Shown here piece by piece: positions 1,367-31,070 of a DNA stretch of 64,000 nt; within the stretch, counting starts at the first letter, position 1; each line of letters begins with the position of its first letter. The stretch spans positions 5,916-69,915 of the forward strand of contig CAZPQG010000005.1 of assembly GCA_964588685.1 (NCBI GenBank). Direction: 5' to 3'. Made by a program: the position numbers and the translations under genes. The DNA is from an uncultured Pseudomonadales bacterium (lineage in GTDB: Bacteria; Patescibacteriota; Microgenomatia; UBA1400; PJMF01). The notes under the pieces were generated by a model that was not told the origin of the DNA, searched no databases, and saw only the letters and a program-made list of their open reading frames with translations.

Positions 1367-3619
1367 TTAATTAAGCTCACCCTCTCTAGCTTTTATTTTT
1401 GATTGTAAATTTTCTATTCTTTCTTTTAGAGCATGGTCGTTGGGTAGTAAATTGCGCAAGTTATATTGATACTGTTCTAAAGCCTGGGTGTAATTACCAC
1501 TGTGTTCGTAAATTAAACCTAATTGGTGGCGCGCTTGATGATAATCAGGCTTCATGATAATAGCCTGCTTAATAGTGTCAATGGCTTGCTCTTGTTTGCC
1601 CATCCTGTATTCAATTAAGCCCTGTTGATAAACTAATTTTGGGTCAGTTGGAGCTTTATTTTGAGCCTTTAGTAATATTTTTCGAGAAGTTTCTAAATGT
1701 TGTTCATCAATAACAGCCAGTCGAGAATAAATGGCTGATTGACTTTTATAAAAATTTAAATGATGAGGGTTTAGCTCCAGTGTTTGTTCAGCTGCGGCTT
1801 TAGTTAGAGCAGTATATTGCTGCGCTGCTTCTGGTTTTCCTTCTTCAAAAAGGTTGACTGCGGCTTGGGCGTAGCCGTCAGCTAACTCATCATAAAATAA
1901 TGCTTCTTGCGGGGCAAGCAATACAGCTCGCTGTAAATCGGCAATGCCTTGGGAGTAATTGTGTTTAGCTAACTGCTGTTTGCCTTTAAAATGCAGATGA
2001 TCAGCATGCCAAATGGCTGTCAGCCGCATCAATAAATAAAAAGCGATTAAGCCTAACCAAAATAAGGTAATAATTTGGAAAAAAGATAGTTTTTTGCCGG
2101 AGTTTGCAGCTTGAGTTGAAGTAGTAAAAGAGCTGCTGCCGGCTGCTGCCTGATTTAAACTTAAATAAGACATGAAAAATACCCAAAGCACAGATACCAT
2201 GACTGTAGAAAACCCTAAAATGTTGGTGATATTGAAGCCCACTAGGCTGGCGCCAAGGCTGAGTATCAGCTGCTGTTGAGCGGAAAAATTATTGGATTGT
2301 TGATGCGGCTGTTTTGTTAAAGTCGGCCAAAGCGCTTTTGCCGTCAAGTAAAAACAGCTGCCCATCAGGAAAAGATAGGTGCTCAAACCCACAATGCCGG
2401 TGGTAGCAAGTAAGTTTAAAAGTTCGTTGTGAGCTTTATTATATAAAAAATCCCACTCTGATACCAAGTTGTGTTCTTGAGGTCGATCAAGATAATAAGT
2501 ATAAGCAAATGTTTCAGGGCCGGAGCCTAGCCAGGGATAGCGTTGCCAGATTTTTAAAGCTCCTTGCCAAACAATTAACCTAATTTTTTCTGAAGGAGTG
2601 ATGGTGATGCCGGCTTGCTGATTTTTATTTGATTCAGACCGCGGCGGTATTGGGTCTTCTGTTGTAGAATCAGGTCTCCAAATAGGCAAAAGCCGGCCTA
2701 AAGAGTGGGTAAAATCAGTGCCGACTACGACAGTTAGGCCGGCTATTAATAAGATTAATGACACCATAGCTTTTTTACTTGCAGTTTGGAGTTTGAATTT
2801 CTTTTCAAGCATAGTTTTGAGAGTGGAGCCGCTTTTAACAAGGCAGCCCAGCATTAACATTAAGCTGACAGCAATTGCCAGCAAAGCTGATCTTGATTGA
2901 GTAAAGAGGAGAGCCAGAAAAATTGCCAAACTGCCCAACAGCCAGCGCTGTCGGAGTAAATTGAAAAGGGTTGATTGATTAAAATTGGTTTTTGGTGTTA
3001 AAACAGTGTGCAGATGAAAGCTAATTCCTAGAGGTAAAAGCATGGCTAAATATGCTCCAAGCCAATTAGGCTGGCCAAAAGTAGCAAAAACTCTGTGCCG
3101 CACGTCTTGCATCCAGCAATTGTCATTGAAGCGTCCACTAATGATAAAACAGCTGGGCGACATACCTAGTTTTTCGGGAATGGCGTATAAACTGACGCCG
3201 ATACCGGCTAAAACGGCTGTTTTGAGTAAGGTTAATACTTGATTTTTATTAAAATTGCTGACAAAAGCCCAATAGAGCAGGGCGTAAGAGAGAGTTGAAA
3301 GCAGCCCGCCGTGAAAGCGGGAATAGTACCCGAAAATTGAGGTATAAGGATGCAGAGAAAAAAAAGTAGCTAACATATTGCTGAGTAAAAAGGCCAGCCA
3401 AGCCCAATCAAGGAAAGTGTGTTTAAAAATAATTTTTTTAGCAGTGATCATGCGTCCAATCCAGGCAGTGGTAATCACAATTGTTATGCCATAAACAAAC
3501 AGCATTTTATTAAACTCAAAAAGCTCCACATTAAACCAGGTAAATAAAAAGGGTGTGACAGCCAAGAGTAAGTTGGCGCCTAAAAAGATGGTTTTTTTAA
3601 AAAATTTATTTAAAAACAT
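1367..3619 (-). CDS. Polytopic membrane protein with an O-antigen ligase/polymerase-like (Wzy_C/WaaL-like) core and a C-terminal TPR repeat domain.
   Basis: Many predicted TM helices. QPNWLGAYLAMLLPLGISF-type segment as in O-antigen ligase family proteins. The C-terminal roughly 230 aa show TPR-like repeats (ALFYDELADGYAQA; HQLGLIYEHSGNYTQALEQY). Confidence 0.55.
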   Translation of the reverse strand: MFLNKFFKKTIFLGANLLLAVTPFLFTWFNVELFEFNKMLFVYGITIVITTAWIGRMITAKKIIFKHTFLDWAWLAFLLSNMLATFFSLHPYTSIFGYYSRFHGGLLSTLSYALLYWAFVSNFNKNQVLTLLKTAVLAGIGVSLYAIPEKLGMSPSCFIISGRFNDNCWMQDVRHRVFATFGQPNWLGAYLAMLLPLGISFHLHTVLTPKTNFNQSTLFNLLRQRWLLGSLAIFLALLFTQSRSALLAIAVSLMLMLGCLVKSGSTLKTMLEKKFKLQTASKKAMVSLILLIAGLTVVVGTDFTHSLGRLLPIWRPDSTTEDPIPPRSESNKNQQAGITITPSEKIRLIVWQGALKIWQRYPWLGSGPETFAYTYYLDRPQEHNLVSEWDFLYNKAHNELLNLLATTGIVGLSTYLFLMGSCFYLTAKALWPTLTKQPHQQSNNFSAQQQLILSLGASLVGFNITNILGFSTVMVSVLWVFFMSYLSLNQAAAGSSSFTTSTQAANSGKKLSFFQIITLFWLGLIAFYLLMRLTAIWHADHLHFKGKQQLAKHNYSQGIADLQRAVLLAPQEALFYDELADGYAQAAVNLFEEGKPEAAQQYTALTKAAAEQTLELNPHHLNFYKSQSAIYSRLAVIDEQHLETSRKILLKAQNKAPTDPKLVYQQGLIEYRMGKQEQAIDTIKQAIIMKPDYHQARHQLGLIYEHSGNYTQALEQYQYNLRNLLPNDHALKERIENLQSKIKAREGELN

Positions 3620-3667
3620 ATTAAAAATAAGGTGATTTAAAATCGGTTGGATAATGCAGTATTAAAT

Positions 3668-4077
3668 TTAATTCTGATTATACCCCGCAGCTTGCTACGG
3701 GGAACAAATCAGAATGGGGTGTAGACTAATTAGGTAATAAAGTTTTTTGCTTATTATTAATTATATTATTTAAAGTTTATTCTAAATCTTTTGTTTATTT
3801 TCTGTGTTGCCTTCTCCTTAAGTGCTTGAGTGCAACACTAGTGTCGTCAGCGCCTTGAAAATAAAACAAAATCTTTATGAAATCAATGCAACTTTATTAC
3901 CCGATTAGTCTATTCAAGGGGGAATCCCCCTTGGTGTGACTGGGGGTTTAATACCCCTAGTCACAGGGGAGCAGGCTTTGTTCTTGCAAAGCAAGACAAA
4001 ACGCTGAGGGCCCTCCCTCAGAATTTATTATACTCTGATCATTGTTGAGCCCATAAAGAATCTATTTTAACAGGCGG
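3668..4077. repeat. Structured, hairpin-dense intergenic element (copy A, full length). A 23-bp module TTAATTCTGATTATACCCCGCAG sits at 3668-3690. A 34-bp module AAAACGCTGAGGGCCCTCCCTCAGAATTTATTA sits at 3997-4030, and TTAACAGGCGG follows at about 4067-4077. Both modules recur at 63845-63951.
   Basis: The same modules occur at both loci, seen directly in the sequence. Between the modules copy A carries at least four strong hairpins: CCAAGGGGGAATCCCCCTTGG, GTGACTGGGG..CCCCTAGTCAC, TTTGTTCTTGCAAAGCAAGACAAA and CTGAGGGCCCTCCCTCAG. The inverted repeat ATTCTGATT/AATCAGAAT lies at 3671-3716. Confidence 0.55.
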
Positions 4078-4227
4078 ACAAGTAGTTAATGTTATTGATT
4101 GTTATAGTTATAGAATTTATGTAATATTTTGCTGCGTCAATGTTTACTATGGCTGTTTCATTAACTGATTTTTGTTGTTATTATTAAAGATAATACTATT
4201 ACTATTTATTAACTTATATTACTGCCT

Positions 4228-5709
4228 ATGCACGTACAAAAAAAGCAAAATCAACAGATGAATGATAATCAAACACAAAACCAGCCAGTACAGCCCGGCC
4301 AGCCCGGCCAACCTGCTCAACCCGGCCAGGCTAAGCAAGCCAACCAACAAGCTCAACCCGGACAAGCAATTCAAACTGAGTCAACAAAAAAAATAACTAA
4401 GCCAAAGCAAAATCAACCGGCTCAGCAGGCGCAATCCAAACAACAGGCCCAACCGGCACAACCTAAACAACCGGCGCAGCCTAAACAAGCCAAAGCACCG
4501 GCCAAACCCAAACAGCCTGCCCAACCTGCGCAGCAACAGCAGGCTGAAAAAACACCACAGCAAGCTGCCAATACACAGCCCGAGCAAAAACAGCAGGAGG
4601 CTTCAGGCAGTCAACAAGCACAACAGGCCGCTGATAACACTGATTATGTTAAATCGTATAATCCACCTGATACAGATAAAGACTCAACTGCTCACAAACA
4701 AACAAAGCAATCAACCGAGGATGACCAGCAAGCAGGGCAGCAACCGGGCAATGACCAACAGCCTGCACAGCAAAATGAGGATCAACAGTCATCAAAGCAA
4801 AAGACTGACCAGCAGCAGAAAAAAGCTGATTTTGAAGAAGTTGATAAAAAATTAGAAGAGGAAATTCAACGCCTTGAAGAAATGGTAAATAAATTTTCCG
4901 GGGAAGCTCCAAAAGCAAAAGCTCCGGAAGAATCAGCTGAGACAGCTAACGCAGGCGAGGTAGCCGGTCAAGCTGGTAAAGGACAGGAGAAAAGCGACCA
5001 GTCAAAATCAGCCGCAGCCCAACCAAAACAACCAGGCCAGCCTGCCCAACCAAAGCAGCCCGGCCAACCTGTGCAACCAAAACAACCAGGCCAGCCCGCA
5101 CAGCCACAGCAGGCTGAAAAAACACAGCAGCAGACATCACAACAGCAGGCATCTCCCTCTGAAGCAGCTCAAACTGATCAGGATCAGACTACTCAAGCTC
5201 AAACAGCACAAGCTCAAACTTCCGGTAGTGAACAGGCAGATTCTGTTCTTCCTAACTCTGAAAAGCTTATTGATCAAAACATTTTTTATTTACTAGGTAT
5301 TCAAAATAATGATCAGCGAGAAAAAGACGATTTTTTAGGTGACCTGCAGGAGATTATTTGGGAGGATTTCTTGGAAAATGATTTGCCGGCCATGATTGAT
5401 GATGACAAGCGAGCTGAAGTTGATAAAATTTTGCAAAATGATCAAGCCGATAATTGGCAAAAACAAGAGCAAGTTTTATCTTTTTTGGAAAGAGAAATGT
5501 CAGATCTGGAACAGGTGATGGAGAAAAAGGCGTTGGTCTTTAAGCAAAAATTAGTAGAGCAAAGAATTGAAGATATGAAAGAGCAATTTGCTCAGAATAA
5601 TGATGTTTTGCAAAAGATCAAGCAAGCAGAGGTAGAGATCGGCCAAGGGAATTGGAAGTCAGGCTCAATTTTGTTAAATGAAGCCGCTGCCATGGCAGCG
5701 GAGGGCTAA
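4228..5709 (+). CDS. Large low-complexity Q/P/A/K-rich protein (predicted intrinsically disordered) with internal PKQPGQPAQ-type repeats and a C-terminal coiled-coil/acidic domain. Function unknown.
   Basis: The protein is 493 aa. QPGQPAQP / KQPAQPKQ repeat blocks occur at about aa 20-110 and aa 265-300. There is no signal peptide or TM segment. The C-terminal 150 aa are non-repetitive. The gene lies immediately upstream of the mreB-like gene. Confidence 0.45.
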   Translation: MHVQKKQNQQMNDNQTQNQPVQPGQPGQPAQPGQAKQANQQAQPGQAIQTESTKKITKPKQNQPAQQAQSKQQAQPAQPKQPAQPKQAKAPAKPKQPAQPAQQQQAEKTPQQAANTQPEQKQQEASGSQQAQQAADNTDYVKSYNPPDTDKDSTAHKQTKQSTEDDQQAGQQPGNDQQPAQQNEDQQSSKQKTDQQQKKADFEEVDKKLEEEIQRLEEMVNKFSGEAPKAKAPEESAETANAGEVAGQAGKGQEKSDQSKSAAAQPKQPGQPAQPKQPGQPVQPKQPGQPAQPQQAEKTQQQTSQQQASPSEAAQTDQDQTTQAQTAQAQTSGSEQADSVLPNSEKLIDQNIFYLLGIQNNDQREKDDFLGDLQEIIWEDFLENDLPAMIDDDKRAEVDKILQNDQADNWQKQEQVLSFLEREMSDLEQVMEKKALVFKQKLVEQRIEDMKEQFAQNNDVLQKIKQAEVEIGQGNWKSGSILLNEAAAMAAEG

Positions 5710-5737: not shown

Positions 5738-5766
5738 TAAACCCGGGTTTCAGCCCGGGTTTCATT
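5738..5766 (+). terminator. Candidate intrinsic terminator downstream of the 4228..5709 CDS.
   Basis: AAACCCGGG-TTTCAG-CCCGGGTTT forms a perfect 9-bp GC-rich stem followed by TTCATTC. Confidence 0.4.
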
Positions 5767-5837
5767 CACTCTAGTTAAGACTATTAATAAATATAGTACA
5801 ATAGTTAAACTTTAGATAAAGTAAACACCAGCCGACC

Positions 5838-7040
5838 ATGTTTAACATCACTCAATCTTTAGCTGCAGTTAAAAAAAATTTAAAGCTTAGTAAAATAAGA
5901 TGCGCTTTTGATATTGGGAGTTTTTGCACTAGAGTAATGGTGAACGATCAATTAGCACTTAATCAGCCCAGTTGTTTTTTGTTTAACTACAGTGATCAAA
6001 GAGTGCTGTCATGGGGTGATGAAGCCATCCCAATGTTTGGTCGAGAGCCGTCTGGAACTGAAGTGGTTTTTCCTATTATGCAGGGTGTGGTTTATGATCA
6101 AGACCAGTTTGAATTATTTTTAAAAGCAATAGTCGATACACTTAAACAAGAGCTTGACTGGGCTTGGTTGTCAAGAGCAGAAGCAGCTTACGCTCTCCCA
6201 GCTAATGCTACAGAGCTTGATAAAGATATTATCAAGCAAAGTTTAACTCAAACTGGGTTTAATAAAATCAGTTTAATAAATCGAGCTTCGGCTGTAATGG
6301 CCAGCCTGCATCAAGCTCGAAGCAGTGCGGCTCCGGACGCTTCAATCGAGAGTCAGATTGTGGTGATTGATTTAGGTGATGAGACAACAGAAGTGGTGAT
6401 TGGCAGCGGCGGCAGGGTGAATTTTGCTCAAACTATTCCCAGCGGAGGAAAAAAAATTACAGCGGCCATCAGCAATAAGTTAAAACAAGAACATAATTTG
6501 GTGATTAGTGAGCAGCAGGCACTTAAAATTAAACATAATTTTTATCAGAGTTTGAGCGGGCACGAATTGACTCTTGTCCAGCAGAAGGCGGTTCCAAATA
6601 ATCAGACGCAGGCCGCTGCTCCCTTTTCTCAGGAAAATGATGGAGCTCACGCAAATAGTGATGCTAATCGTAAAGCTGATCATGATGCTGCAGCTGATAT
6701 CATGCAAAAAAATCAAAGCCATAAGCTTAACATCAGAGGTATTAATGCCGCTGACTATATGATTGAAACCAAAACAATTGAGGTAGATGAGCTGAAAGCA
6801 GTGATAGAGCAGGAGCTGGAGCAATTAATGCGTCATATTAAGCAAGTATTAAGTTTAGCTAAATCAGAACAGTTGGTTGCAGCTTTGGGCAACGGAATAA
6901 TTTTAACCGGCGGCGGTAGCAAATTGTGGGATATTGATGACTATTTTTCAATGCAGCTGCAGGCGAATACTGTTAAGTCCAAGCAACCTTTTTTAGACGT
7001 AGTACAGGGGGTAAGTTTAAAAACGGCAGCTGATAAATAA
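5838..7040 (+). CDS. mreB: Divergent actin-like rod-shape protein MreB, with an insertion of about 90 aa.
   Basis: [13 protein letters not shown] resembles the MreB phosphate-1 segment [36 protein letters not shown] resembles [48 protein letters not shown] matches phosphate-2 [20 protein letters not shown] matches VLTGGGALL. The gene is followed by mreC, mreD and mrdA. An extra Q/A/D-rich segment lies at about aa 235-320. Confidence 0.65.
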   Translation: [400 protein letters not shown]

Positions 7041-7184: not shown

Positions 7185-7988
7185 ATGATTTTTTCTTTAG
7201 TGCCAATCTCACTTCAAGATAAAGTTAAAAAACCACTCATATTAATAGTGTTTGTATTGCTGCTGGCTTTTTTTGAGATGCTGGGGATAACCCGGCCTAT
7301 TATTCAAGCCGGCCAAACAAGCTTAACACCTTTGCTGCAGTTTAATGTTAGGCTGGTGGGCAGTTTTTATCAATTTTTTGAGGAAGCAAAAGGCTGGCGC
7401 AGTACAGCGCGCCGGGTGCGTGATTTAGAAATAAAATTAGCTCAGACTTCAGCCCAGTTAGGTGAGTTGCAGCAGCTGCGCCAGGAAAATCAACAGCTGC
7501 GAGAATTGTTGCAAACTGTTGGTCCGGCAAGCAGCGAAGTGTTGATTACCAGGCCGATTTTATCCATTGCTCAGCCGGCAGTGGGCTTACCGGCAGCTGC
7601 AGAGGATGAGCTGAAAGTACAGCCTGGTTTGGCTGTTTTGGTTGAAGAAACACTGGTGGGAGTAGTGAGCCGGGTGCAAAATAATGTGGCTTATGTCGGC
7701 TTATTGTGGCAGAAAGACAGTCCTTTTGTTTTGGCGCAAACTGAAACCGGAGTAAATGGTTTACTGGCTGGTGACGGCAGAAGAGTGCTGCTGACTGAAA
7801 TCCCGGTTGATGAACAAGTTGTAGTAGGTGATCGAGTGACAACAACCGGTCAAGAGGGCATTGCCCAAGGTTTATTTGTTGGCGAGGTACGCAGTATTCA
7901 AAGCGGTGATACGTCAGCTGTTAAAACAGCAGTAATTGAGCAATATGTTTCTTTTTATGAGTCCGGATTAGTCGAAATTAAATTGTAA
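7185..7988 (+). CDS. mreC: Rod shape-determining protein MreC.
   Basis: N-terminal TM segment, a coiled-coil (LEIKLAQTSAQLGELQQLRQENQQLRELL), then a beta-rich domain (LVGVVSRVQNNVAYVGLL...). The position between mreB and mreD/mrdA fits. Confidence 0.7.
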   Translation: MIFSLVPISLQDKVKKPLILIVFVLLLAFFEMLGITRPIIQAGQTSLTPLLQFNVRLVGSFYQFFEEAKGWRSTARRVRDLEIKLAQTSAQLGELQQLRQENQQLRELLQTVGPASSEVLITRPILSIAQPAVGLPAAAEDELKVQPGLAVLVEETLVGVVSRVQNNVAYVGLLWQKDSPFVLAQTETGVNGLLAGDGRRVLLTEIPVDEQVVVGDRVTTTGQEGIAQGLFVGEVRSIQSGDTSAVKTAVIEQYVSFYESGLVEIKL

Positions 7989-8034: not shown

Positions 8035-8490
8035 ATGAAATTAAAAAAAGTTGCCGTTGCTTTGTTAAAGATAATTGGCTTGGTCTTGTTGATTAGTGTA
8101 GAGAGAGTAATTTATCTGCCGTTTTTATTTATTTTGTTTGGCTTGGTTTGGTTGGATCAAGTAGAAGACTCATTTTATGCTTATCTATTGTTGCTGCTTT
8201 TTTTAAGTTTTGTGTTAGCTGCTACCTACAACGTGCTGTGGCCGGTTAGTTTTTTGGTCTGGGCTGTAACTAGTTTATTAACTTCACTGACTACTGATGT
8301 TATTAAAAGTAAAAATAAAAGATTTTTTATAATGACAATAGCGCAGGTAATATTTTGGTTATGGAGAACGCAAATAGTGTTGACTTATTTGAGTTTAATT
8401 CAGTTTATTGTTAGTTATTTAGTAGTATTGCTGTGGATGAGGCTGCTACAGCCCAAGTTTAACAAACAAACTGTGAAACACACAATTTAA
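8035..8490 (+). CDS. mreD: Putative MreD (small polytopic membrane protein).
   Basis: 151 aa with about five TM helices. It lies between mreC and the PBP2 gene. The call rests on position and topology only. Confidence 0.45.
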   Translation: MKLKKVAVALLKIIGLVLLISVERVIYLPFLFILFGLVWLDQVEDSFYAYLLLLLFLSFVLAATYNVLWPVSFLVWAVTSLLTSLTTDVIKSKNKRFFIMTIAQVIFWLWRTQIVLTYLSLIQFIVSYLVVLLWMRLLQPKFNKQTVKHTI

Positions 8491-8502
8491 GATAAGATAA
8501 CT

Positions 8503-10347
8503 ATGAAAATTAAATTATTGCTGGCTCCTATTTTAGCTCTTTTTTTCTTGTTAACGGTGCGGCTGCTTCATTTACAGGTTTTACAGGGAGCGGATTATCG
8601 TGATTTGGCTGATCGCAATCGTTTTTTCAGGCAAGTTGTGCCGGCGGAACGCGGTATTATTTACGATCGTTATCAACAGCCGCTGGTTAAAAATAAAAAG
8701 CTTTATTTTAGAGATATAGGTGAGGGTTTATATTCACCGCAAGAGGCAATTACGGCTGATCAAGCGCTGCAGCTGATGACACAGCAGCCGGAAAAGGTTA
8801 GTTATGAATTGCGGCGGCATTATCTTTATCCCACGCAATTAGCACATGTCTTGGGTTATACTGCTCCGGCCACGGCGCAGGATTTAATTGGTAATAAGCA
8901 GCTGCGCACCAATGACTGGCTGGGTCGAATGGGTTTGGAACAGCAGTTCGACCACTTATTGCGTGGTCAAGATGGGCATCAGGTTTATGAGGTTAATACT
9001 TTAGGTGAAAAACAGCGCTTGTTGTCAGAAAAGAAGCCGACAGCGGGACATGATCTTTATACTAATTTTGATCCTTACTTAGCCAAGATAGCTTATGAGT
9101 CTTTAGGGCAGATGAAAGGAGCAGCAGTGGTTTTGGATGCAGAGACGGGCGGGGTGTTGGCTATGGTTAGCAAACCCTCGTTTAACCCCAATGATTTAAG
9201 CTCAATATTATTGGATGCAAGTCATGAGCAGCAGCGTCAATTAAATTTAAAAAATTATTTACAAAATGAAGATAAAGTATTTTTTAATCGAGCGGTAAAT
9301 GGTACCTATGCTCCTGGGTCAATTTTTAAGTTGGTGACAGCTTTGGCCGGTTTGGAAAATGAGGCTTTTGATGAACATCAAACAGTGTTGGACGAAGGCG
9401 TTTTAAAAGTAGGGGATTATAGTTATGCCAACTGGTTGTACACTCAGCGTGGAGCTACAGACGGTGAGATTGCTTTAGTGCGAGCTATTGCGCGCAGCAA
9501 TGATATTTATTTCTATAAGGCAGCAGAATGGACCGGGCCTACTACTATTGCCCAACAGGCCAGAGAGTTTGGCTTTGGGCAGATTGCGAATATTGAATTG
9601 CCGAGCGAAGCAGCAGGAATAGTGCCTGATCCGGTGTGGAAAGAAGAAACCACGGGAGAACGCTGGTTTTTAGGCAACACTTATCACTTTGGAATTGGTC
9701 AAGGTGATATGTTAGTGTCGCCGCTGCAAGCTGCGCAGATGGTGCAGGCTTTATTTAAAGAAGGAGAAAGGTGCCAGCCCAGGTTAATAGATAATGCTCA
9801 AACAGGGATTAGTGAACAACAGCTAACAGACAACTGTAAAGGCATGGCTTTAGATCAAAAAAATTTAGAACTGGTATTAAAAGGCATGATTGCTGCCTGT
9901 CAGCCGGGCGGCACAGCTTCTTTGTTGTTTGATTTAAATCAAGGTGTTGTGGAAGCCAATCAGGCAGAAAGCGCTTATGATTTATTGCAGCAGGGAGCAG
10001 TGGCTTGCAAAACCGGTACTTCAGAATTTGGCGGTTTAGATGAACAGGACCGCTACAAAACCCACGGCTGGTTTGTGGCAGCGACCACCATAGAAGTGGA
10101 GGAAATGGTTAAAGCATTGGAGCAAAGAGCAGAGGCAGCAACATCCAGAGAAGACGAAATGACAATCAGCGGCCAGTTAACAGCTGATGAATTAGAACAA
10201 TGGGCAGCACAAATTAAAGAACAGGGCTTTCCTAGCAAGGTGGTATTAACAGCCTTGGTGGAGAGCGATGAAGCCATTCCTTATAAGGAAGGATCACACC
10301 ACGCAGCTCCGATTGTGAAAGAATTGTTGGAATGGATGGGGAAGTAG
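8503..10347 (+). CDS. mrdA: Penicillin-binding protein 2 (elongasome transpeptidase).
   Basis: N-terminal TM segment. SxxK motif (GSIFK), SxN (RSND) and KTG (ACKTGTSE). The gene is adjacent to mreBCD. Confidence 0.85.
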   Translation: MKIKLLLAPILALFFLLTVRLLHLQVLQGADYRDLADRNRFFRQVVPAERGIIYDRYQQPLVKNKKLYFRDIGEGLYSPQEAITADQALQLMTQQPEKVSYELRRHYLYPTQLAHVLGYTAPATAQDLIGNKQLRTNDWLGRMGLEQQFDHLLRGQDGHQVYEVNTLGEKQRLLSEKKPTAGHDLYTNFDPYLAKIAYESLGQMKGAAVVLDAETGGVLAMVSKPSFNPNDLSSILLDASHEQQRQLNLKNYLQNEDKVFFNRAVNGTYAPGSIFKLVTALAGLENEAFDEHQTVLDEGVLKVGDYSYANWLYTQRGATDGEIALVRAIARSNDIYFYKAAEWTGPTTIAQQAREFGFGQIANIELPSEAAGIVPDPVWKEETTGERWFLGNTYHFGIGQGDMLVSPLQAAQMVQALFKEGERCQPRLIDNAQTGISEQQLTDNCKGMALDQKNLELVLKGMIAACQPGGTASLLFDLNQGVVEANQAESAYDLLQQGAVACKTGTSEFGGLDEQDRYKTHGWFVAATTIEVEEMVKALEQRAEAATSREDEMTISGQLTADELEQWAAQIKEQGFPSKVVLTALVESDEAIPYKEGSHHAAPIVKELLEWMGK

Positions 10348-10461
10348 GGAAAATTACAATAAATTTGTCGATTTGATGTATTAGTTTTTTATCATTCTTT
10401 TTCAGTTTCATGTAAGCTTTTTGAGCCAAAGTACTTAATCAATAAGTACTTTCTTTATCAT

Positions 10462-11766
10462 ATGGCAGCGGCTGTTCAAAGTTTTCACACTCTTCCCAAC
10501 AAGCTTTCCGGCGCTAATGCTAATGCTGACACCGTCGCTGCTTCTGCTTCAGCAGCTCTTACGCGTAAACAACACCATACAGCCTTGATTTCTGTGAACG
10601 GAATTGGTCCGAAAACTTTTTTTAATATTTTACAACACCTGAAAATTAACCAAATCTCTTGGCAGGAGTTTTGGGTCAATCAGGATCAAATTTGGGCTAA
10701 AATGCGTTTATCAAAAAAGATTGCTTCATCAATTAAAAAGTTTAAAAAAGAGCATACAATTAGTTCTTTTTGGCAGCTATTGCAGCGCAAAAATATTTCG
10801 GTCATTACTTTTCAGGATCAGTCCTATCCTTGGTTGCTGAAACAAACTGATGCCTATCCACCGGTGCTATTTGTGAAGGGTGATATTAAACTCTGCGCCA
10901 AACTGCCCATTGCCGTCATTGGCACCAGGCGCATGACTGCTTACGGTAAAATGGTGACCACTAAAATCAGCCAAGAATTAACAGCGCACGGTGCGGCAGT
11001 GGTGTCAGGCTTTATGTATGGGGTAGATGTTCAAGCCCAGCAAATAGCTCTTCAGGCCGGCGGCGCCACAGTCGGGGTGTTAGGTTTTGGCTTTGATCAT
11101 ATTTACCCGCGTCGGCATAAAAGTATTATGAAACAGATGTTGCAAAGCAAGCAAGCAGTTTTTATCAGCGAATATCCGCCTGATGTTAAACCGGACCGCG
11201 GTACTTTCCCCAGGAGGAATCGTTTGATTGCGGGCTTATCTCTGGCAGTAGTAGTAACCGAAGCCGGACCCAAAAGCGGGACTCAGATTACAGTCGGCTA
11301 TGCTTTAGATTACGGCCGTGATGTGTTTGCTGTTTCAGGTCCGGTTACTTCTCCTTACCATTTAGGAGTAAAGAAGATGCTAAACCAAGGAGCGCTATTG
11401 ATCGGCAGCGGGCAGGAGGTAATGGCTAACTTATCAGCCCGCCATTGGGGTGTAGCCAAACAAACTACCAAGTTGGTGCAGTCACAAACAAATCAAGCTC
11501 GCCAAATTCAAACTCACCAAGCTCAACCAACAGAGCCAATCCAAACAACTCAACCACAAAAACTAGCTTTAACCGGTCTGCAGTTTAATCCGGTGCAAAA
11601 AAAGATTATGACAGCCCTGCGCACCACCACTCTTTCTACCCGGCAGTTAAGCCAGCAGCTTGAACTGGATGCAGTTGAGGTCAGCACAGCCCTAATTGCT
11701 TTAGAATTAAGAGGTTTGGTGAAATGTTGTGCTCATCAATGGATCATAGTGCCATTGTCAAATTGA
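10462..11766 (+). CDS. dprA: DNA processing protein DprA (Smf).
   Basis: IAVIGTRRMTAYGKMVT..VVSGFMYGVD..GGATVGVLGFGFDHIYP matches the DprA Rossmann core. An N-terminal SAM/HhH-like extension (VNGIGPKT) and a C-terminal winged-helix tail are present. Confidence 0.8.
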   Translation: MAAAVQSFHTLPNKLSGANANADTVAASASAALTRKQHHTALISVNGIGPKTFFNILQHLKINQISWQEFWVNQDQIWAKMRLSKKIASSIKKFKKEHTISSFWQLLQRKNISVITFQDQSYPWLLKQTDAYPPVLFVKGDIKLCAKLPIAVIGTRRMTAYGKMVTTKISQELTAHGAAVVSGFMYGVDVQAQQIALQAGGATVGVLGFGFDHIYPRRHKSIMKQMLQSKQAVFISEYPPDVKPDRGTFPRRNRLIAGLSLAVVVTEAGPKSGTQITVGYALDYGRDVFAVSGPVTSPYHLGVKKMLNQGALLIGSGQEVMANLSARHWGVAKQTTKLVQSQTNQARQIQTHQAQPTEPIQTTQPQKLALTGLQFNPVQKKIMTALRTTTLSTRQLSQQLELDAVEVSTALIALELRGLVKCCAHQWIIVPLSN

Positions 11767-23573: not shown

Positions 23574-24260
23574 TTATTCCATTACAGCCAGCACAGCCTG
23601 ACGCATTTCAAGTAATGTTTGCATGAATAAAGCTTGAGCTTGCAACGCATCATCTCGTGCTTGCAAAGCTATGCGGCGCTGCGCCTGATAATCTTCAGGA
23701 TCAACATTGTTAAATCCTTCTTGAGCTGTTTCTGCTTTTTCCATGGCTTGCTCCAGCAGTTTCAAGGCGTCAGCCAATCTTTCTTGACCTTGAGTAACAT
23801 CTTTTCCTTCTTCAGCCAATTTTTCTAACCGTGTTTCAATCTTTTCTGAAATTGAAGTTAGTCGTTGATAATAAAAAGTATATCTTTTTTGAATGCGCAT
23901 GGCGTGCTGATTAAGCATTTGAGCTCTGGCTTGAGTTTGTTTTTGCGTTTGCTGGGCTGTTTCCTGGTCCGGTAGTGTTCCATCGCGGGCTTGTTCAGCT
24001 TTTTTTTGTGCTTGTCCGGGCTGTTCTTGAATTTGGATGCTCGCCTCTTCATCAGGGGCGGTGTTCGGCTCGGTTTCGTCGTCATAATTTTCTTCTATAA
24101 TAATTTTTTCTTGATTTTGCTGCTCTTGTTCATGACTGTTAGGCTGAGCAGTATTGATTGGTTGAGCCAAAACTTTGGGAACACTGACGGCTAAAAGCAG
24201 GGCTGTTAACAATAGTGCAGAGGCAGTAGGAAAGAAGGGAGTTTTTTTCATAGTTTTCAT
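23574..24260 (-). CDS. Secreted or anchored coiled-coil protein, hypothetical.
   Basis: Signal-peptide-like N-terminus (MKTMKKTPFFPTASALLLTALLLAVSVPKVLA), then a Q/E-rich coiled-coil. Confidence 0.3.
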   Translation of the reverse strand: MKTMKKTPFFPTASALLLTALLLAVSVPKVLAQPINTAQPNSHEQEQQNQEKIIIEENYDDETEPNTAPDEEASIQIQEQPGQAQKKAEQARDGTLPDQETAQQTQKQTQARAQMLNQHAMRIQKRYTFYYQRLTSISEKIETRLEKLAEEGKDVTQGQERLADALKLLEQAMEKAETAQEGFNNVDPEDYQAQRRIALQARDDALQAQALFMQTLLEMRQAVLAVME

Positions 24261-30446: not shown

Positions 30447-31070
30447 ATGAAAAAAACTAAGCCATCACTGGTTCGACAGTCCGGGGGCAGTCGTTCTAAT
30501 TTGGGAGGTTTAGATAGTGAGCGCATGGAAAAACAAGCTGTGCAGGCAGCAGTGCAACAAAAAGCACAGCAGCAAACAGGCAGCACTGCCGGCAGCCAAA
30601 GCCGTCAATTAAAGCAAAGTCGAGCTCAAGCTGAACAAAGTAAAACCAAAACTCACAGCCCGCGTGCGGTCGGTTCTTTAAAACAGGAATTAATTGCCAG
30701 GCCGGTAGAGGATATGAAAGATGCTTTTACCAGTTTTTTTGACATCAATGTTTTATTAAACATTGATCAGGAAAGCGACAGCCCAGCAGAACAAGCCAAG
30801 AAAAGAGAGATTCACCGTCGCTTACGGCAGCTCACTCAAGCCGAACAAGAGGAGGCTCAAAAGCAGTTTCGTTTAAGAATGAAGCAAAAACAGGCAGAAG
30901 AAAAGGAAAAAGAGTTAAAAAAACAGCAAAGCAAAGAACAAGAAAAAAAGCCTTTGACCCCACCGTCAGGTAAAGTAAACAGAAAAGGTTTATTTTTAAC
31001 CGGTCAAAGCAATAAGAAAAAAGCACAAAATAGGCTGCAGCAGCAGAGGAGAACTATTGGTACGGTTTAA
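30447..31070 (+). CDS. Low-complexity Q/K/E-rich hypothetical protein.
   Basis: ORF only. Confidence 0.3.
   Translation: MKKTKPSLVRQSGGSRSNLGGLDSERMEKQAVQAAVQQKAQQQTGSTAGSQSRQLKQSRAQAEQSKTKTHSPRAVGSLKQELIARPVEDMKDAFTSFFDINVLLNIDQESDSPAEQAKKREIHRRLRQLTQAEQEEAQKQFRLRMKQKQAEEKEKELKKQQSKEQEKKPLTPPSGKVNRKGLFLTGQSNKKKAQNRLQQQRRTIGTV

What the first reader, a model, noticed from the sequence alone, without database searches (positions are those of the whole stretch)
4228..5709. A 493-aa Q/P/A-rich repeat protein encoded directly upstream of the mreB-mreC-mreD-mrdA cluster
The protein is almost entirely low-complexity. It has (K)QPGQPAQP repeat blocks at both ends of a long Q-rich region. There is no signal peptide or TM segment. 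Only the last 150 aa or so look like a folded, coiled-coil/acidic domain. It sits head-to-tail with the cell-shape operon, followed by a hairpin and a 129-bp gap. It could be a disordered scaffold or cytoskeleton-associated protein specific to this lineage. The repeat-encoding DNA (CAGCCCGGCCAGCCCGGCCAACCTGC...) could also drive length variation.
Basis: partly seen in the sequence, partly recalled or inferred. Interest (0 to 1): 0.5.

Follow-up and report, generated by a model that had tools for sequence, protein, structure and literature searches.

The report
Unknown conserved gene preceding mreB operon
This is a real gene for a mostly disordered protein whose acidic, all-helical tail domain defines an undescribed family; that family sits directly in front of the cell-shape (mreB) operon in nearly every sampled species of one group of ultra-small Patescibacteria, so it is a likely but untested extra part of their cell-wall elongation machinery.

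Summary
ORF 4228-5709 encodes a 493-aa protein. Residues 1-339 are Q/A/K/P-rich, carry imperfect 9/27-nt repeats and are predicted disordered. Residues 340-493 form a confidently predicted all-alpha domain (pLDDT 97).

The C-terminal domain defines a family: 305 clusters at 50% identity and 530 at 90%. All are "hypothetical". There is no Pfam, NCBIfam, PDB-sequence or fold match. Named sources are Patescibacteria (Pacebacteria/Woesebacteria labels).

In 59 of 60 species-level genomes the gene lies on the same strand just upstream of a divergent mreB-like gene (median gap 34 bp), followed by mreC-mreD-PBP2. This block is tighter than the surrounding synteny.

Family architecture: an N-terminal short motif (S-Y-V-D-x-Y-x-P-P; D139-P147 here), a disordered linker of 11-339 aa (this window has the longest in that set), and the conserved domain. 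The domain evolves more slowly than PBP2 and far more slowly than the MreB-like protein. It also occurs fused to a membrane M48 peptidase on plasmid-like elements and to a STAND NTPase.

Best reading, inferred and not shown: a cytoplasmic two-site adaptor of the Rod complex. No interaction evidence was obtained, and rate covariation with MreB was absent. Interest is moderate.

The parts
4228..5709 (+). Gene X: 493-aa protein (stop codon included). First gene of the X-mreB-mreC-mreD-PBP2 block.
   Evidence: ORF listed. The 'MHVQ' start resembles the 'MHVQ'/'MF(V/A)Q' starts of the closest relatives. Homologues were found.
4228..5244 (+). N-terminal disordered region (aa 1-339), Q/A/K/P-rich. 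It is the longest linker among the 60 species loci compared.
   Evidence: pLDDT 41-56. Composition. Family range is 11-339 aa with a median of about 69.
4291..4329 (+). 9-nt tandem repeat (CAGCCCGGC x4.3) encoding QPG repeats.
   Evidence: TRF; repeat family D1.
4414..4534 (+). Imperfect 27-nt repeats encoding (K)QPAQPAQP-type units. Part of the left copy of an internal duplication.
   Evidence: family D2: 4447-4562 against 5017-5132, 71% identity.
4642..4668 (+). Short linear motif D-Y-V-K-S-Y-N-P-P (aa 139-147). This is the window's version of the family motif S-Y-V-D-x-Y-x-P-P.
   Evidence: P146 and P147 fall in columns that are at least 90% conserved in alignment A6. The motif Y[VAIL][DENSKT]xYxPP has 43 hits in 657,116 residues of six-frame ORFs of all loci, and every hit is in X. 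It is present in at least 70 of 152 representatives.
4810..4899 (+). Isolated amphipathic helix (aa 195-224, ...ADFEEVDKKLEEEIQRLEEMVNKF...) inside the disordered region.
   Evidence: AF2 helix 195-224, pLDDT 72-80. Similar helices occur in relatives P0007 and L012.
5017..5096 (+). 27-nt x3 tandem repeat encoding PKQPGQPAQ units (right-hand repeat block).
   Evidence: TRF: 81% matches, score 118.
5245..5706 (+). Conserved C-terminal domain (aa 340-493): acidic, all-alpha with 6-7 helices. This domain defines the family.
   Evidence: AF2 pLDDT 96.8, pTM 0.87. 305 clusters at E<=1e-3 and 530 proteins. No Pfam, NCBIfam, PDB or fold match.
5739..5762 (+). Hairpin (10-bp stem AAACCCGGGU/GCCCGGGUUU, 4-nt loop) in the 128-bp spacer between X and mreB. 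Possibly a weak terminator or attenuator.
   Evidence: Not scored as a terminator. A promoter-like site lies at 5775-5802.
5838..7040 (+). Divergent MreB-like actin (400 aa), immediately downstream.
   Evidence: Pfam MreB_Mbl 3.4e-43. NCBIfam scores are below cut-off. Only 4e-16 to solved MreBs.
7185..7988 (+). MreC.
   Evidence: Pfam MreC 1.1e-17.
8035..8490 (+). Putative MreD: a 151-aa hydrophobic ORF between mreC and PBP2.
   Evidence: Assigned by position only; no Pfam or NCBIfam hit. An ORF of this size sits between MreC and PBP2 in the related loci (MreC|PBP2 gap about 462 bp).
8503..10347 (+). PBP2-type transpeptidase (mrdA).
   Evidence: Pfam Transpeptidase 1.7e-53 and PBP_dimer 1.4e-20.
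1367..3619 (-). Divergently transcribed Wzy_C (O-antigen-ligase-like) membrane protein with C-terminal TPRs. It is a conserved neighbour of X.
   Evidence: Pfam. Present upstream and divergent in almost all loci. Weak rate covariation with X.

Best explanation
Gene X encodes a cytoplasmic accessory protein of the Rod (MreB-MreC-MreD-PBP2) cell-wall elongation system of one Patescibacteria lineage. I propose it works as a two-site flexible adaptor.

- The conserved acidic helical C-terminal domain is the working module. It docks on a conserved cellular target, most plausibly the cytoplasmic face of the Rod complex. The MreB-like filament is the only sizeable cytoplasmic product of the operon.
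- The N-terminal S-Y-V-D-x-Y-x-P-P motif is held at a variable distance by a disordered P/Q/S/T/A-rich linker and engages a second partner.
- The Q/P repeats of this window's copy are simply the local, fast-evolving filling of that linker, and this is the longest seen in the set.

Shown: the gene is real; the family exists; its architecture; the tight, conserved operon position; strong constraint on the domain; modular reuse of the domain.

Inferred: cytoplasmic location, any binding partner, and the adaptor role.
For: 1. Operon position. X lies directly upstream of and co-directional with an mreB-like gene in 59 of 60 species-level genomes. The median X-to-mreB gap is 34 bp (IQR 23-72), and only 1 of 58 gaps exceeds 300 bp. 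The neighbouring PBP2|DprA junction is broken by more than 300 bp in 20 of 45 loci. The block is therefore tighter than background synteny.

2. Divergence. These genomes are deeply diverged (median corrected distance TopA 0.54, PBP2 0.88). The X domain nevertheless stays at 0.73. It is the second most conserved of the seven genes compared and far more conserved than MreC (1.55) or MreB-like (1.96).

3. Fold. The domain is a confidently predicted autonomous fold (pLDDT 96.8, pTM 0.87) with many nearly invariant polar or charged residues.

4. Location. No TM segment or signal peptide. By sequence inspection, MreC and PBP2 have only about 16 and 4 cytoplasmic residues (translations). MreB-like is thus the obvious cytoplasmic neighbour.

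5. Motif. A family-specific N-terminal motif is found only in X among 657,116 residues of ORFs. It is followed by a linker of 11-339 aa whose composition is not conserved. The motif is not predicted to dock on X's own domain.

6. Portability. The domain is fused to a membrane M48 peptidase beside a TraG-like coupling protein, ParA and Rep. It is also fused to the C-terminus of a DUF4062-STAND-TPR NTPase in a defence-type island. This is the behaviour of a targeting or interaction module.
Against: - No direct evidence of any interaction was obtained.
- Evolutionary-rate covariation between the X domain and MreB-like (partial r -0.03) or MreC (-0.05) is absent. The only signal is a weak one with the divergent Wzy_C/TPR neighbour (r 0.27, p about 0.004).
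- A slowly evolving domain binding the fastest-evolving protein of the cluster is somewhat paradoxical.
- One short contig (L033, 2.7 kb) has X followed directly by mreC with no mreB.
- In this window a hairpin and a promoter-like site lie between X and mreB, so co-transcription here is not assured.
- Long-range synteny (including dprA-topA) is generally well kept in this lineage, so part of the adjacency may be inheritance rather than function.
Confidence: 0.4

Rival explanations
1. X is a self-assembling hub or scaffold of the PopZ/DivIVA type. The C-terminal helical domain would oligomerise into a matrix or condensate. The disordered linker would tune its material properties, and the N-terminal motif would recruit clients. 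The link with the Rod system would then be spatial organisation rather than one-to-one binding to MreB.
For: The three-part layout (short conserved N-terminal motif, acidic or proline-rich linker of variable length, conserved helical C-terminal domain, low pI) parallels PopZ as I know it from the literature. High conservation of the domain without covariation with MreB fits a self-interacting module.
Against: AF2 predicts the 154-aa domain as a compact, self-contained bundle with very high confidence as a monomer. No long coiled coil is present. No sequence or fold similarity to PopZ, DivIVA or other scaffolds was found. Oligomerisation was not testable here.
Confidence: 0.2
2. X acts with the divergently transcribed Wzy_C/TPR membrane protein (a glycan ligase/polymerase-like enzyme) rather than with MreB. 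One option is that its tyrosine-proline motif is a TPR ligand. The adjacency to mreB would then be inherited gene order.
For: The Wzy_C/TPR gene is the other invariant neighbour, divergent with a median spacer of 89 bp. The only significant rate covariation of the X domain is with this protein (partial r 0.27, p about 0.004). From general knowledge, TPR domains typically bind short peptide motifs.
Against: The covariation is weak and may reflect physical linkage. X is co-directional and nearly contiguous with mreB, not with Wzy. By my hand count of hydrophobic segments after the Wzy_C loop, the TPR domain would lie outside the cell while X has no export signal; this topology was not computed. 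16 of 57 loci lack the motif by the loose pattern used, but all keep the neighbour.
Confidence: 0.12
3. X is a lineage-specific protein of unrelated function (for example a regulator or chaperone). It merely happens to be fixed next to mreB in a lineage with slow genome rearrangement.
For: No homology to anything known. No covariation with Rod proteins. Functionally unrelated dprA-topA is also syntenic. The domain is reused in non-Rod contexts.
Against: The X-mreB junction is far tighter than the nearby PBP2|DprA junction, which tolerates insertions in 44% of loci. Gaps of 0-70 bp on the same strand indicate one transcription unit in most species.
Confidence: 0.2
4. The repeat tract makes X a contingency (phase- or length-variable) gene, possibly for a surface-exposed protein.
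For: Tandem 9/27-nt repeats exist, and linker length differs greatly between species.
Against: Repeat units are multiples of 3 and only 60-81% matched, so they cannot switch the frame and are poor slippage substrates. No signal peptide or TM. The repeats are not conserved in relatives, which use other low-complexity compositions. No close relatives are available to show polymorphism.
Confidence: 0.05

Closest known systems
RodZ (MreB-binding Rod-complex protein of many bacteria)
   Same: An accessory protein of the MreB system. It combines a small helical cytoplasmic module with a long proline/serine/threonine-rich disordered segment.
ZipA (FtsZ membrane tether of gamma-proteobacteria)
   Same: A P/Q-rich flexible linker joins an anchoring element to a C-terminal globular domain that binds a cytoskeletal protein. 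This is the same tether-on-a-string logic.
   Different: ZipA is anchored by an N-terminal TM helix, and its C-terminal domain is an alpha/beta fold (general knowledge). X has no TM, has an all-alpha domain, gives no ZipA_C Pfam hit, and lies with mreB rather than ftsZ.
PopZ (polar organising protein of alpha-proteobacteria)
   Same: Three-part layout: a short conserved N-terminal interaction motif, an acidic or proline-rich disordered linker of variable length, and a conserved C-terminal helical region. The protein is strongly acidic.
   Different: No sequence or fold similarity. The X domain is about 150 aa and is predicted as a compact monomeric bundle. PopZ is not encoded in the mreB operon (general knowledge).
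EzrA (spectrin-like cell-division regulator of Firmicutes)
   Different: The match covers only about one three-helix unit and lies among designed helical bundles with similar scores. There is no Foldseek hit. EzrA has an N-terminal TM and about 560 aa of repeats.
Pfam DUF5663 (PF18908, 84-position model of unknown function)
   Same: Sub-threshold matches over most of the model. P0001 residues 96-171 align to profile positions 13-81 of 84 at 15.1 bits. 8 of 147 family members match at E<=1.
   Different: No member reaches the 23.7-bit gathering score, and the window's own domain gives no hit. The count equals that of an obviously spurious family (nuclear hormone receptor, 8 of 147). A remote relationship is unproven.

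Membership tests
New 'X' family (C-terminal acidic helical domain, Patescibacteria) | Significant full-length match to the roughly 145-aa C-terminal domain profile | tested here: met
   The window domain is 53%/42% identical to P0001/P0002. The profile finds 305 clusters at E<=1e-3 and 166 at <=1e-30, and 530 proteins. The window scores 156.9 bits against the 147-member HMM.
New 'X' family | Position directly upstream of and co-directional with mreB-like-mreC-mreD-PBP2, divergent from Wzy_C/TPR | tested here: met
   The window has the same order as 59 of 60 species loci.
New 'X' family | N-terminal motif S-Y-V-D-x-Y-x-P-P followed by a disordered linker | tested here: met
   The window has D-Y-V-K-S-Y-N-P-P at aa 139-147, aligned to the family motif. 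The linker is disordered. The motif is unusually far from the N-terminus here.
Pfam DUF5663 (PF18908) | Score at or above the gathering threshold (23.7 bits) | tested here: not met
   No hit for the window protein. The one sub-threshold match examined in detail scored 15.1 bits (P0001), and the lowest E-value among family members was 0.0068. 8 of 147 match at E<=1, the same as noise families.
RodZ | N-terminal HTH, single TM helix and periplasmic C-terminal domain | tested here: not met
   No Pfam or NCBIfam hit. Maximum KD19 is 0.54, so no TM. There is no folded N-terminal domain.
ZipA | N-terminal TM anchor and ZipA_C FtsZ-binding domain | tested here: not met
   No TM and no Pfam hit. Only the P/Q-rich linker is shared.
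PopZ | Sequence or fold homology to PopZ; C-terminal oligomerisation helices | tested here: not met
   No Pfam or PDB match. Oligomerisation is not testable with these tools.
EzrA / spectrin-like repeat proteins | Fold match over the domain, tandem triple-helix repeats, N-terminal TM | tested here: not met
Rod complex (MreB-associated) component | Physical interaction or co-localisation with MreB, MreC, MreD, PBP2 or RodA | not testable with these tools
   Only operon membership is shown. Rate covariation is negative or inconclusive. Complex prediction was not possible.
Simple-sequence contingency locus | Long, near-perfect tandem repeats able to change copy number at high rate or shift the frame | tested here: not met
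   Units of 9/27 nt with 60-81% matches and at most 4.3 copies.
MreB (for the downstream neighbour 5838-7040) | Score above family cut-offs for MreB | tested here: inconclusive
   Pfam MreB_Mbl passes (148 bits against 27). NCBIfam MreB models are far below cut-off (135 against 293; 113 against 366). Only 4e-16 to solved MreBs. It is an MreB-family actin, but a divergent one.

The most novel reading that the evidence does not exclude
X is a previously unrecognised core subunit of the Rod/elongasome system in a large Patescibacteria lineage. Its novel-fold acidic domain would be the conserved handle that partners a fast-evolving MreB-like actin or the synthase complex. The same domain would act as a portable 'go to the cell-wall synthesis site' tag. 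Conjugative or plasmid-like elements (M48 peptidase fusions next to the coupling protein) and STAND defence NTPases would have captured it for that purpose.
Probability: 0.22. Interest if true: 0.75.

Novelty: new variant of a known kind. Interest (0 to 1): 0.55.

Why it matters
Almost nothing is known experimentally about how the ultra-small, mostly uncultured Patescibacteria build and shape their cell wall. Their genomes are annotated as simply having MreBCD.

This analysis shows that one large lineage carries a fifth, strongly constrained gene fixed at the head of that operon. It encodes a domain with no detectable relative in Pfam, NCBIfam, PDB or viral structure sets. The MreB-like protein next to it evolves unusually fast.

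If X is a Rod-complex subunit, it would be a new type of cytoskeleton accessory factor and a concrete handle for heterologous reconstitution of a CPR elongasome. Its capture by mobile elements and a defence-type NTPase would point to a reusable localisation or interaction module.

If it is not, it is still a well-defined, widespread family (more than 500 sequences) that deserves a family entry and a structure.

Tried and rejected
1. **Apparent X-MreB fusion in L052.** This was a script artefact. One search shows two separate ORFs.

2. **X with MreB complex prediction.** I built a chimera (X + Gly/Ser linker + MreB) with unpaired homologue rows (A5). MAFFT aligned the X homologues onto the MreB part. 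Paired chimeras could not be printed whole, and the tool returns no PAE or coordinates. I used the last structure job for full-length X instead.

3. **Mirror-tree / rate covariation across 49 species.** No X-MreB or X-MreC signal, and only a weak X-Wzy signal. The X domain matrix (148 columns) correlates poorly with everything, so the test has low power.

4. **Internal duplication of the domain.** hhalign of the two halves gives probability 0.3%. Rejected.

5. **DUF5663 and DUF4942 sub-threshold Pfam hits.** These are at noise level.

7. **Close relatives for repeat-number polymorphism.** The JGI metagenome scan with the window domain found none. The viral contig scan found none. The window protein itself was not among the hits of the word-based search of the 5.8-billion-protein set, whose best hit is 54% identical on the domain.

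8. **Paralogues.** An HMM search of all six-frame ORFs of the window and 68 loci found none.

9. **PHROGs, NCBIfam, PDB sequence profiles.** Nothing.

10. **Literature.** No paper mentions the family, DUF5663/PF18908, or an extra gene in CPR mreB operons.

11. **Rfam on the structured upstream spacer.** Nothing.
Full report

Yes. The window has an ATG-initiated ORF at 4228-5709 (+) of 493 codons.

- Residues 1-339 are 27% Q, 14% A, 10% K and 10% P.
- Residues 340-493 are rich in E/L/Q/D, with net charge -17 and pI 4.3.
- The highest 19-residue Kyte-Doolittle mean is 0.54, so there is no transmembrane helix or signal peptide.
- The protein is the compositional outlier of the window: Q is 22% against a median of 6% for 54 ORFs, and the richest 40-aa window is 65% Q+P.

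Tandem Repeats Finder and the repeat tool confirm imperfect in-frame repeats:

- 9 nt x4.3 at 4291-4329;
- 27-nt units at 4414-4534;
- 27 nt x3 at 5017-5096 (81% matches);
- a 116-nt internal duplication, 4447-4562 against 5017-5132, at 71% identity.

The spacer to the next gene is 128 bp. It holds a 10-bp-stem hairpin at 5739-5762. The simple scan does not call this a terminator, and a promoter-like site follows at 5775-5802.

Downstream lie four genes:

- an MreB-family gene (5838-7040; Pfam 3.4e-43);
- MreC (7185-7988);
- an MreD-sized membrane ORF (8035-8490; assigned by position only);
- PBP2 (8503-10347).

DprA and TopA follow. Upstream and divergent is a Wzy_C/TPR membrane protein (1367-3619).

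**2. What is folded?**

AlphaFold2 on the last 154 residues, with a 147-sequence alignment, gives pLDDT 96.8 and pTM 0.87. The model is all-alpha with helices at 24-50, 53-63, 70-84, 88-114, 119-133 and 137-153.

On the full length, residues 1-340 score pLDDT 41-56, except one isolated helix at 195-224 (72-80). The C-terminal domain keeps 91-98.

The domain is a compact bundle rather than a coiled coil.

**3. The family.**

The whole protein and its domain hit nothing in Pfam, NCBIfam or PHROGs.

The domain alone first found two proteins, of 221 and 194 aa, at 54% and 42% identity. Both lie directly upstream of mreB-mreC-(mreD)-PBP2.

- A three-sequence profile against 1.84 billion cluster representatives found 305 proteins at E<=1e-3 and 166 at <=1e-30. 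The domain is almost always at the extreme C-terminus, behind 8 to about 350 other residues.
- A 38-sequence profile against the 5.8-billion set found 530 proteins. All are unnamed or 'hypothetical' and none has a Pfam domain.
- A scan of one genome per GTDB species returned 60 loci. Informative titles say Pacebacteria, Woesebacteria, Paceibacterota or 'Patescibacteria group'. Many MAGs are titled 'uncultured Pseudomonadales', 'Vitreimonas' and so on but carry the same locus, so these are evidently mislabelled.

No solved structure is related by sequence. Fold searches also found nothing convincing:

- Foldseek against PDB and BFVD finds nothing below E=1.
- The AlphaFold-DB libraries were unavailable.

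Sub-threshold hits to Pfam DUF5663 occur in 8 of 147 members at E<=1. The one sub-threshold match I examined in detail scored 15.1 bits against a 23.7-bit cut-off. This is the same frequency as an obviously spurious family. I therefore do not file X under DUF5663.

The domain shows no internal duplication. It has no paralogue in the window or in any fetched locus.

No paper in the library mentions it.

**4. Architecture of the family.**

Before the domain there is always low-complexity sequence of very variable length. In the species set it runs 11-339 aa with a median of about 69, and this window has the longest. Its composition also varies (P/S/T/A-rich in most, Q-rich in the window's sub-lineage).

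This region is not featureless. A short motif, consensus S-Y-V-D-x-Y-x-P-P, lies near the N-terminus.

- It is in at least 70 of 152 representatives by a strict pattern and 100 by a loose one.
- It is in 44 of 57 species loci.
- The pattern Y[VAIL][DENSKT]xYxPP occurs 43 times in 657,116 residues of six-frame ORFs from the window and all loci, and every occurrence is in X.

In the window the motif is D139-Y-V-K-S-Y-N-P-P147 (DNA 4642-4668). It aligns to the family motif (P146 and P147 are in columns at least 90% conserved). Here it is displaced from the N-terminus by the first Q/P repeat block. AF2 does not dock it onto X's own domain.

The nearest relatives share three further features:

- the 'MHVQ'/'MF(V/A)Q' start;
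- QP-type repeats of different length and sequence;
- an amphipathic helix like residues 195-224.

The repeats are therefore the fast-evolving filling of a linker, not the conserved element.

**5. Gene neighbourhood.**

tblastn with the window's proteins shows one gene order in essentially all 60 species loci: Wzy_C/TPR (-) | X | MreB-like | MreC | (MreD) | PBP2 | DprA | TopA.

I resolved the cases where MreB was not detected:

- Eleven are MreB-like by HMM.
- L032 has a run of Ns inside mreB.
- L030 has an overlapping start.
- L005 has a 630-aa secreted-protein gene inserted between X and mreB.

After this, 59 of 60 have the MreB-like gene downstream. Only a 2.7-kb contig (L033) goes from X straight to mreC.

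Junction statistics:

| Junction | Median gap | Notes |
|---|---|---|
| X\|MreB | 34 bp | IQR 23-72; 1 of 58 exceeds 300 bp |
| MreB\|MreC | -4 bp | overlapping |
| MreC\|PBP2 | 462 bp | MreD lies between |
| PBP2\|DprA | not stated | more than 300 bp in 20 of 45 loci |

X-mreB-mreC-mreD-PBP2 therefore behaves as one tight unit inside looser synteny.

The genomes are deeply diverged. Median corrected distances are TopA 0.54, X domain 0.73, PBP2 0.88, Wzy 1.03, DprA 1.22, MreC 1.55 and MreB-like 1.96. The X domain is under stronger constraint than PBP2.

The MreB-like protein is the fastest-evolving gene of the block. It is only distantly similar to solved MreBs (4e-16) and falls below the NCBIfam cut-offs.

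**6. Modularity.**

Three representatives carry the domain in other contexts.

- P0100 (685 aa; Pfam Peptidase_M48) and P0130 (785 aa) are membrane proteins. A P/S/T/A-rich linker follows, then the X domain.
- Both are encoded right after a TraG/TrwB-like coupling protein. For P0100 this sits with ParA and Rep genes, so on plasmid-like or conjugative elements.
- P0148 (1239 aa) is a DUF4062-NTPase-TPR (STAND-type) protein ending in the X domain. It sits among a restriction-modification S subunit, AAA_15/21 ATPases, a resolvase, a PIN protein and a primase.

The domain therefore behaves as an autonomous, portable interaction or targeting module.

**7. Mechanism.**

What is shown:

- a real, constrained gene;
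- a novel domain family;
- a motif-linker-domain layout;
- no export signal;
- a fixed position at the head of the Rod operon;
- portability of the domain.

From this I infer a cytoplasmic two-site adaptor of the Rod system. The acidic domain would dock on a conserved target. MreB-like is the only large cytoplasmic product of the operon. By inspection of the translations, MreC and PBP2 expose only about 16 and 4 cytoplasmic residues. The tyrosine-proline motif, on a flexible tether of species-specific length, would bind a second partner. I put this at about 0.4.

Several points count against it:

- Mirror-tree analysis over 49 species finds no rate covariation of X with MreB-like or MreC. There is only a weak signal with the Wzy_C/TPR neighbour (partial r 0.27, p about 0.004), and the test has low power.
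- A slowly evolving domain paired with the fastest-evolving protein is odd.
- In this window a hairpin and a promoter-like site separate X from mreB.

Rival readings:

- a PopZ-like self-assembling hub (0.2);
- a partner of the Wzy_C/TPR protein (0.12);
- an unrelated function with inherited adjacency (0.2);
- a repeat-driven contingency or surface protein (0.05; the repeats are degenerate and in-frame, and there is no export signal).

**8. Comparison with known systems.**

X works most like the tether-type cytoskeleton accessories: RodZ, ZipA and PopZ. These also combine a small binding element, a long P/Q/S/T-rich linker and a folded domain.

X fails every membership test for them. It has no TM, no HTH, no ZipA_C, and no sequence or fold match. 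It is a new family attached to a known system, so I rate it a new variant of a known kind.

**9. Verdict.**

The finding is real and more interesting than a lone low-complexity ORF. The conserved part is a novel, well-folded domain fixed at the head of the mreB operon across a major CPR lineage.

Function remains inferred. Interest is 0.55.

The most novel reading not excluded is a new core Rod-complex subunit whose domain is a portable elongasome-targeting tag captured by mobile elements and defence NTPases. I give it a probability of about 0.22 and an interest of 0.75 if true.

Noticed in passing
window 3620-4227: The divergent spacer between the Wzy_C/TPR gene and X is 608 bp here, against a median of 89 bp in related loci. 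It is strongly structured: RNA fold of 3640-4060 has MFE -142 kcal/mol, z = -7.9. It holds several perfect GC-rich hairpins (about 3670-3716, 3915-3935, 3936-3964, 4004-4021) and a 23-nt inverted repeat, 3722-3744 / 3890-3912. There is no Rfam match at gathering or at E<=1, and the 3936-3964 hairpin is unique in the window. It could be an unknown ncRNA, a leader or an inserted element.
   Followed up: partly
window 5838-7040 and MreB-like genes of L003-L062: The MreB-like actin of this lineage is unusually divergent and fast-evolving. It is 19-46% identical to the window's copy across species. Its median corrected distance is 1.96, the highest of the seven genes compared. It scores only 4e-16 to solved MreBs and is below the NCBIfam MreB cut-offs. 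The window's copy carries a low-complexity insertion around aa 250-300. Most copies seen begin with a conserved 'MSRF...' amphipathic N-terminus (sequences).
   Followed up: partly
L063 6001-8058, L064, L065; L066 2241-4598, L067: The X domain occurs at the end of membrane proteins carrying an HExxH zinc-peptidase motif (P0100, which hits Pfam Peptidase_M48, and P0130, which has no Pfam hit). Both are encoded immediately after a TraG/TrwB-like coupling protein, near ParA and Rep genes in the case of P0100. This looks like a plasmid-like or conjugative element of Patescibacteria. These fusions lack the S-Y-V-D-x-Y-x-P-P motif (by inspection).
   Followed up: partly
L068 6001-9720: A 1239-aa DUF4062-NTPase-TPR (STAND-like) protein ends in the X domain. 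It lies among a type I R-M specificity subunit, AAA_15/AAA_21 ATPases, a resolvase, a PIN protein and a primase, so in a defence or mobile island.
   Followed up: partly
L003-L062 (record titles): Many MAGs carrying this typical Patescibacteria locus are titled 'uncultured Pseudomonadales bacterium', 'Vitreimonas sp.', 'Methylococcaceae bacterium' or 'Limisphaerales bacterium'. These taxonomic labels are evidently wrong.
   Followed up: no
PBP2|DprA junction in L003-L062; window 10348-10461: The junction between PBP2 and dprA is an insertion hot spot. It exceeds 300 bp in 20 of 45 loci and reaches 3 kb. The window has them adjacent.
   Followed up: no
L005 8507-10399: One species has a 630-aa gene inserted between X and mreB. 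Its product has an N-terminal hydrophobic segment and repeated C-terminal modules. This is the only broken X-mreB junction seen apart from L033.
   Followed up: no
window 10462-11766, 588-1337, 23574-24260, 30447-31070: Other proteins of this genome also carry Q-rich stretches. Examples are the DprA tail around aa 340-380 (40% Q+P) and three ORFs with 13-15% Q. Q-rich low complexity is therefore partly a trait of the genome, and X is its extreme case.
   Followed up: no
window 4228-5709 versus public collections: Neither the protein nor a close relative turned up in the word-based search of the 5.8-billion-protein set, nor in the pattern-based scans of JGI metagenome contigs, viral contigs or GTDB species genomes. 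The best hit is 54% identity on the domain, and the closest locus L003 has PBP2 at 69% identity. The source organism seems to have no close sequenced relative.
   Followed up: partly
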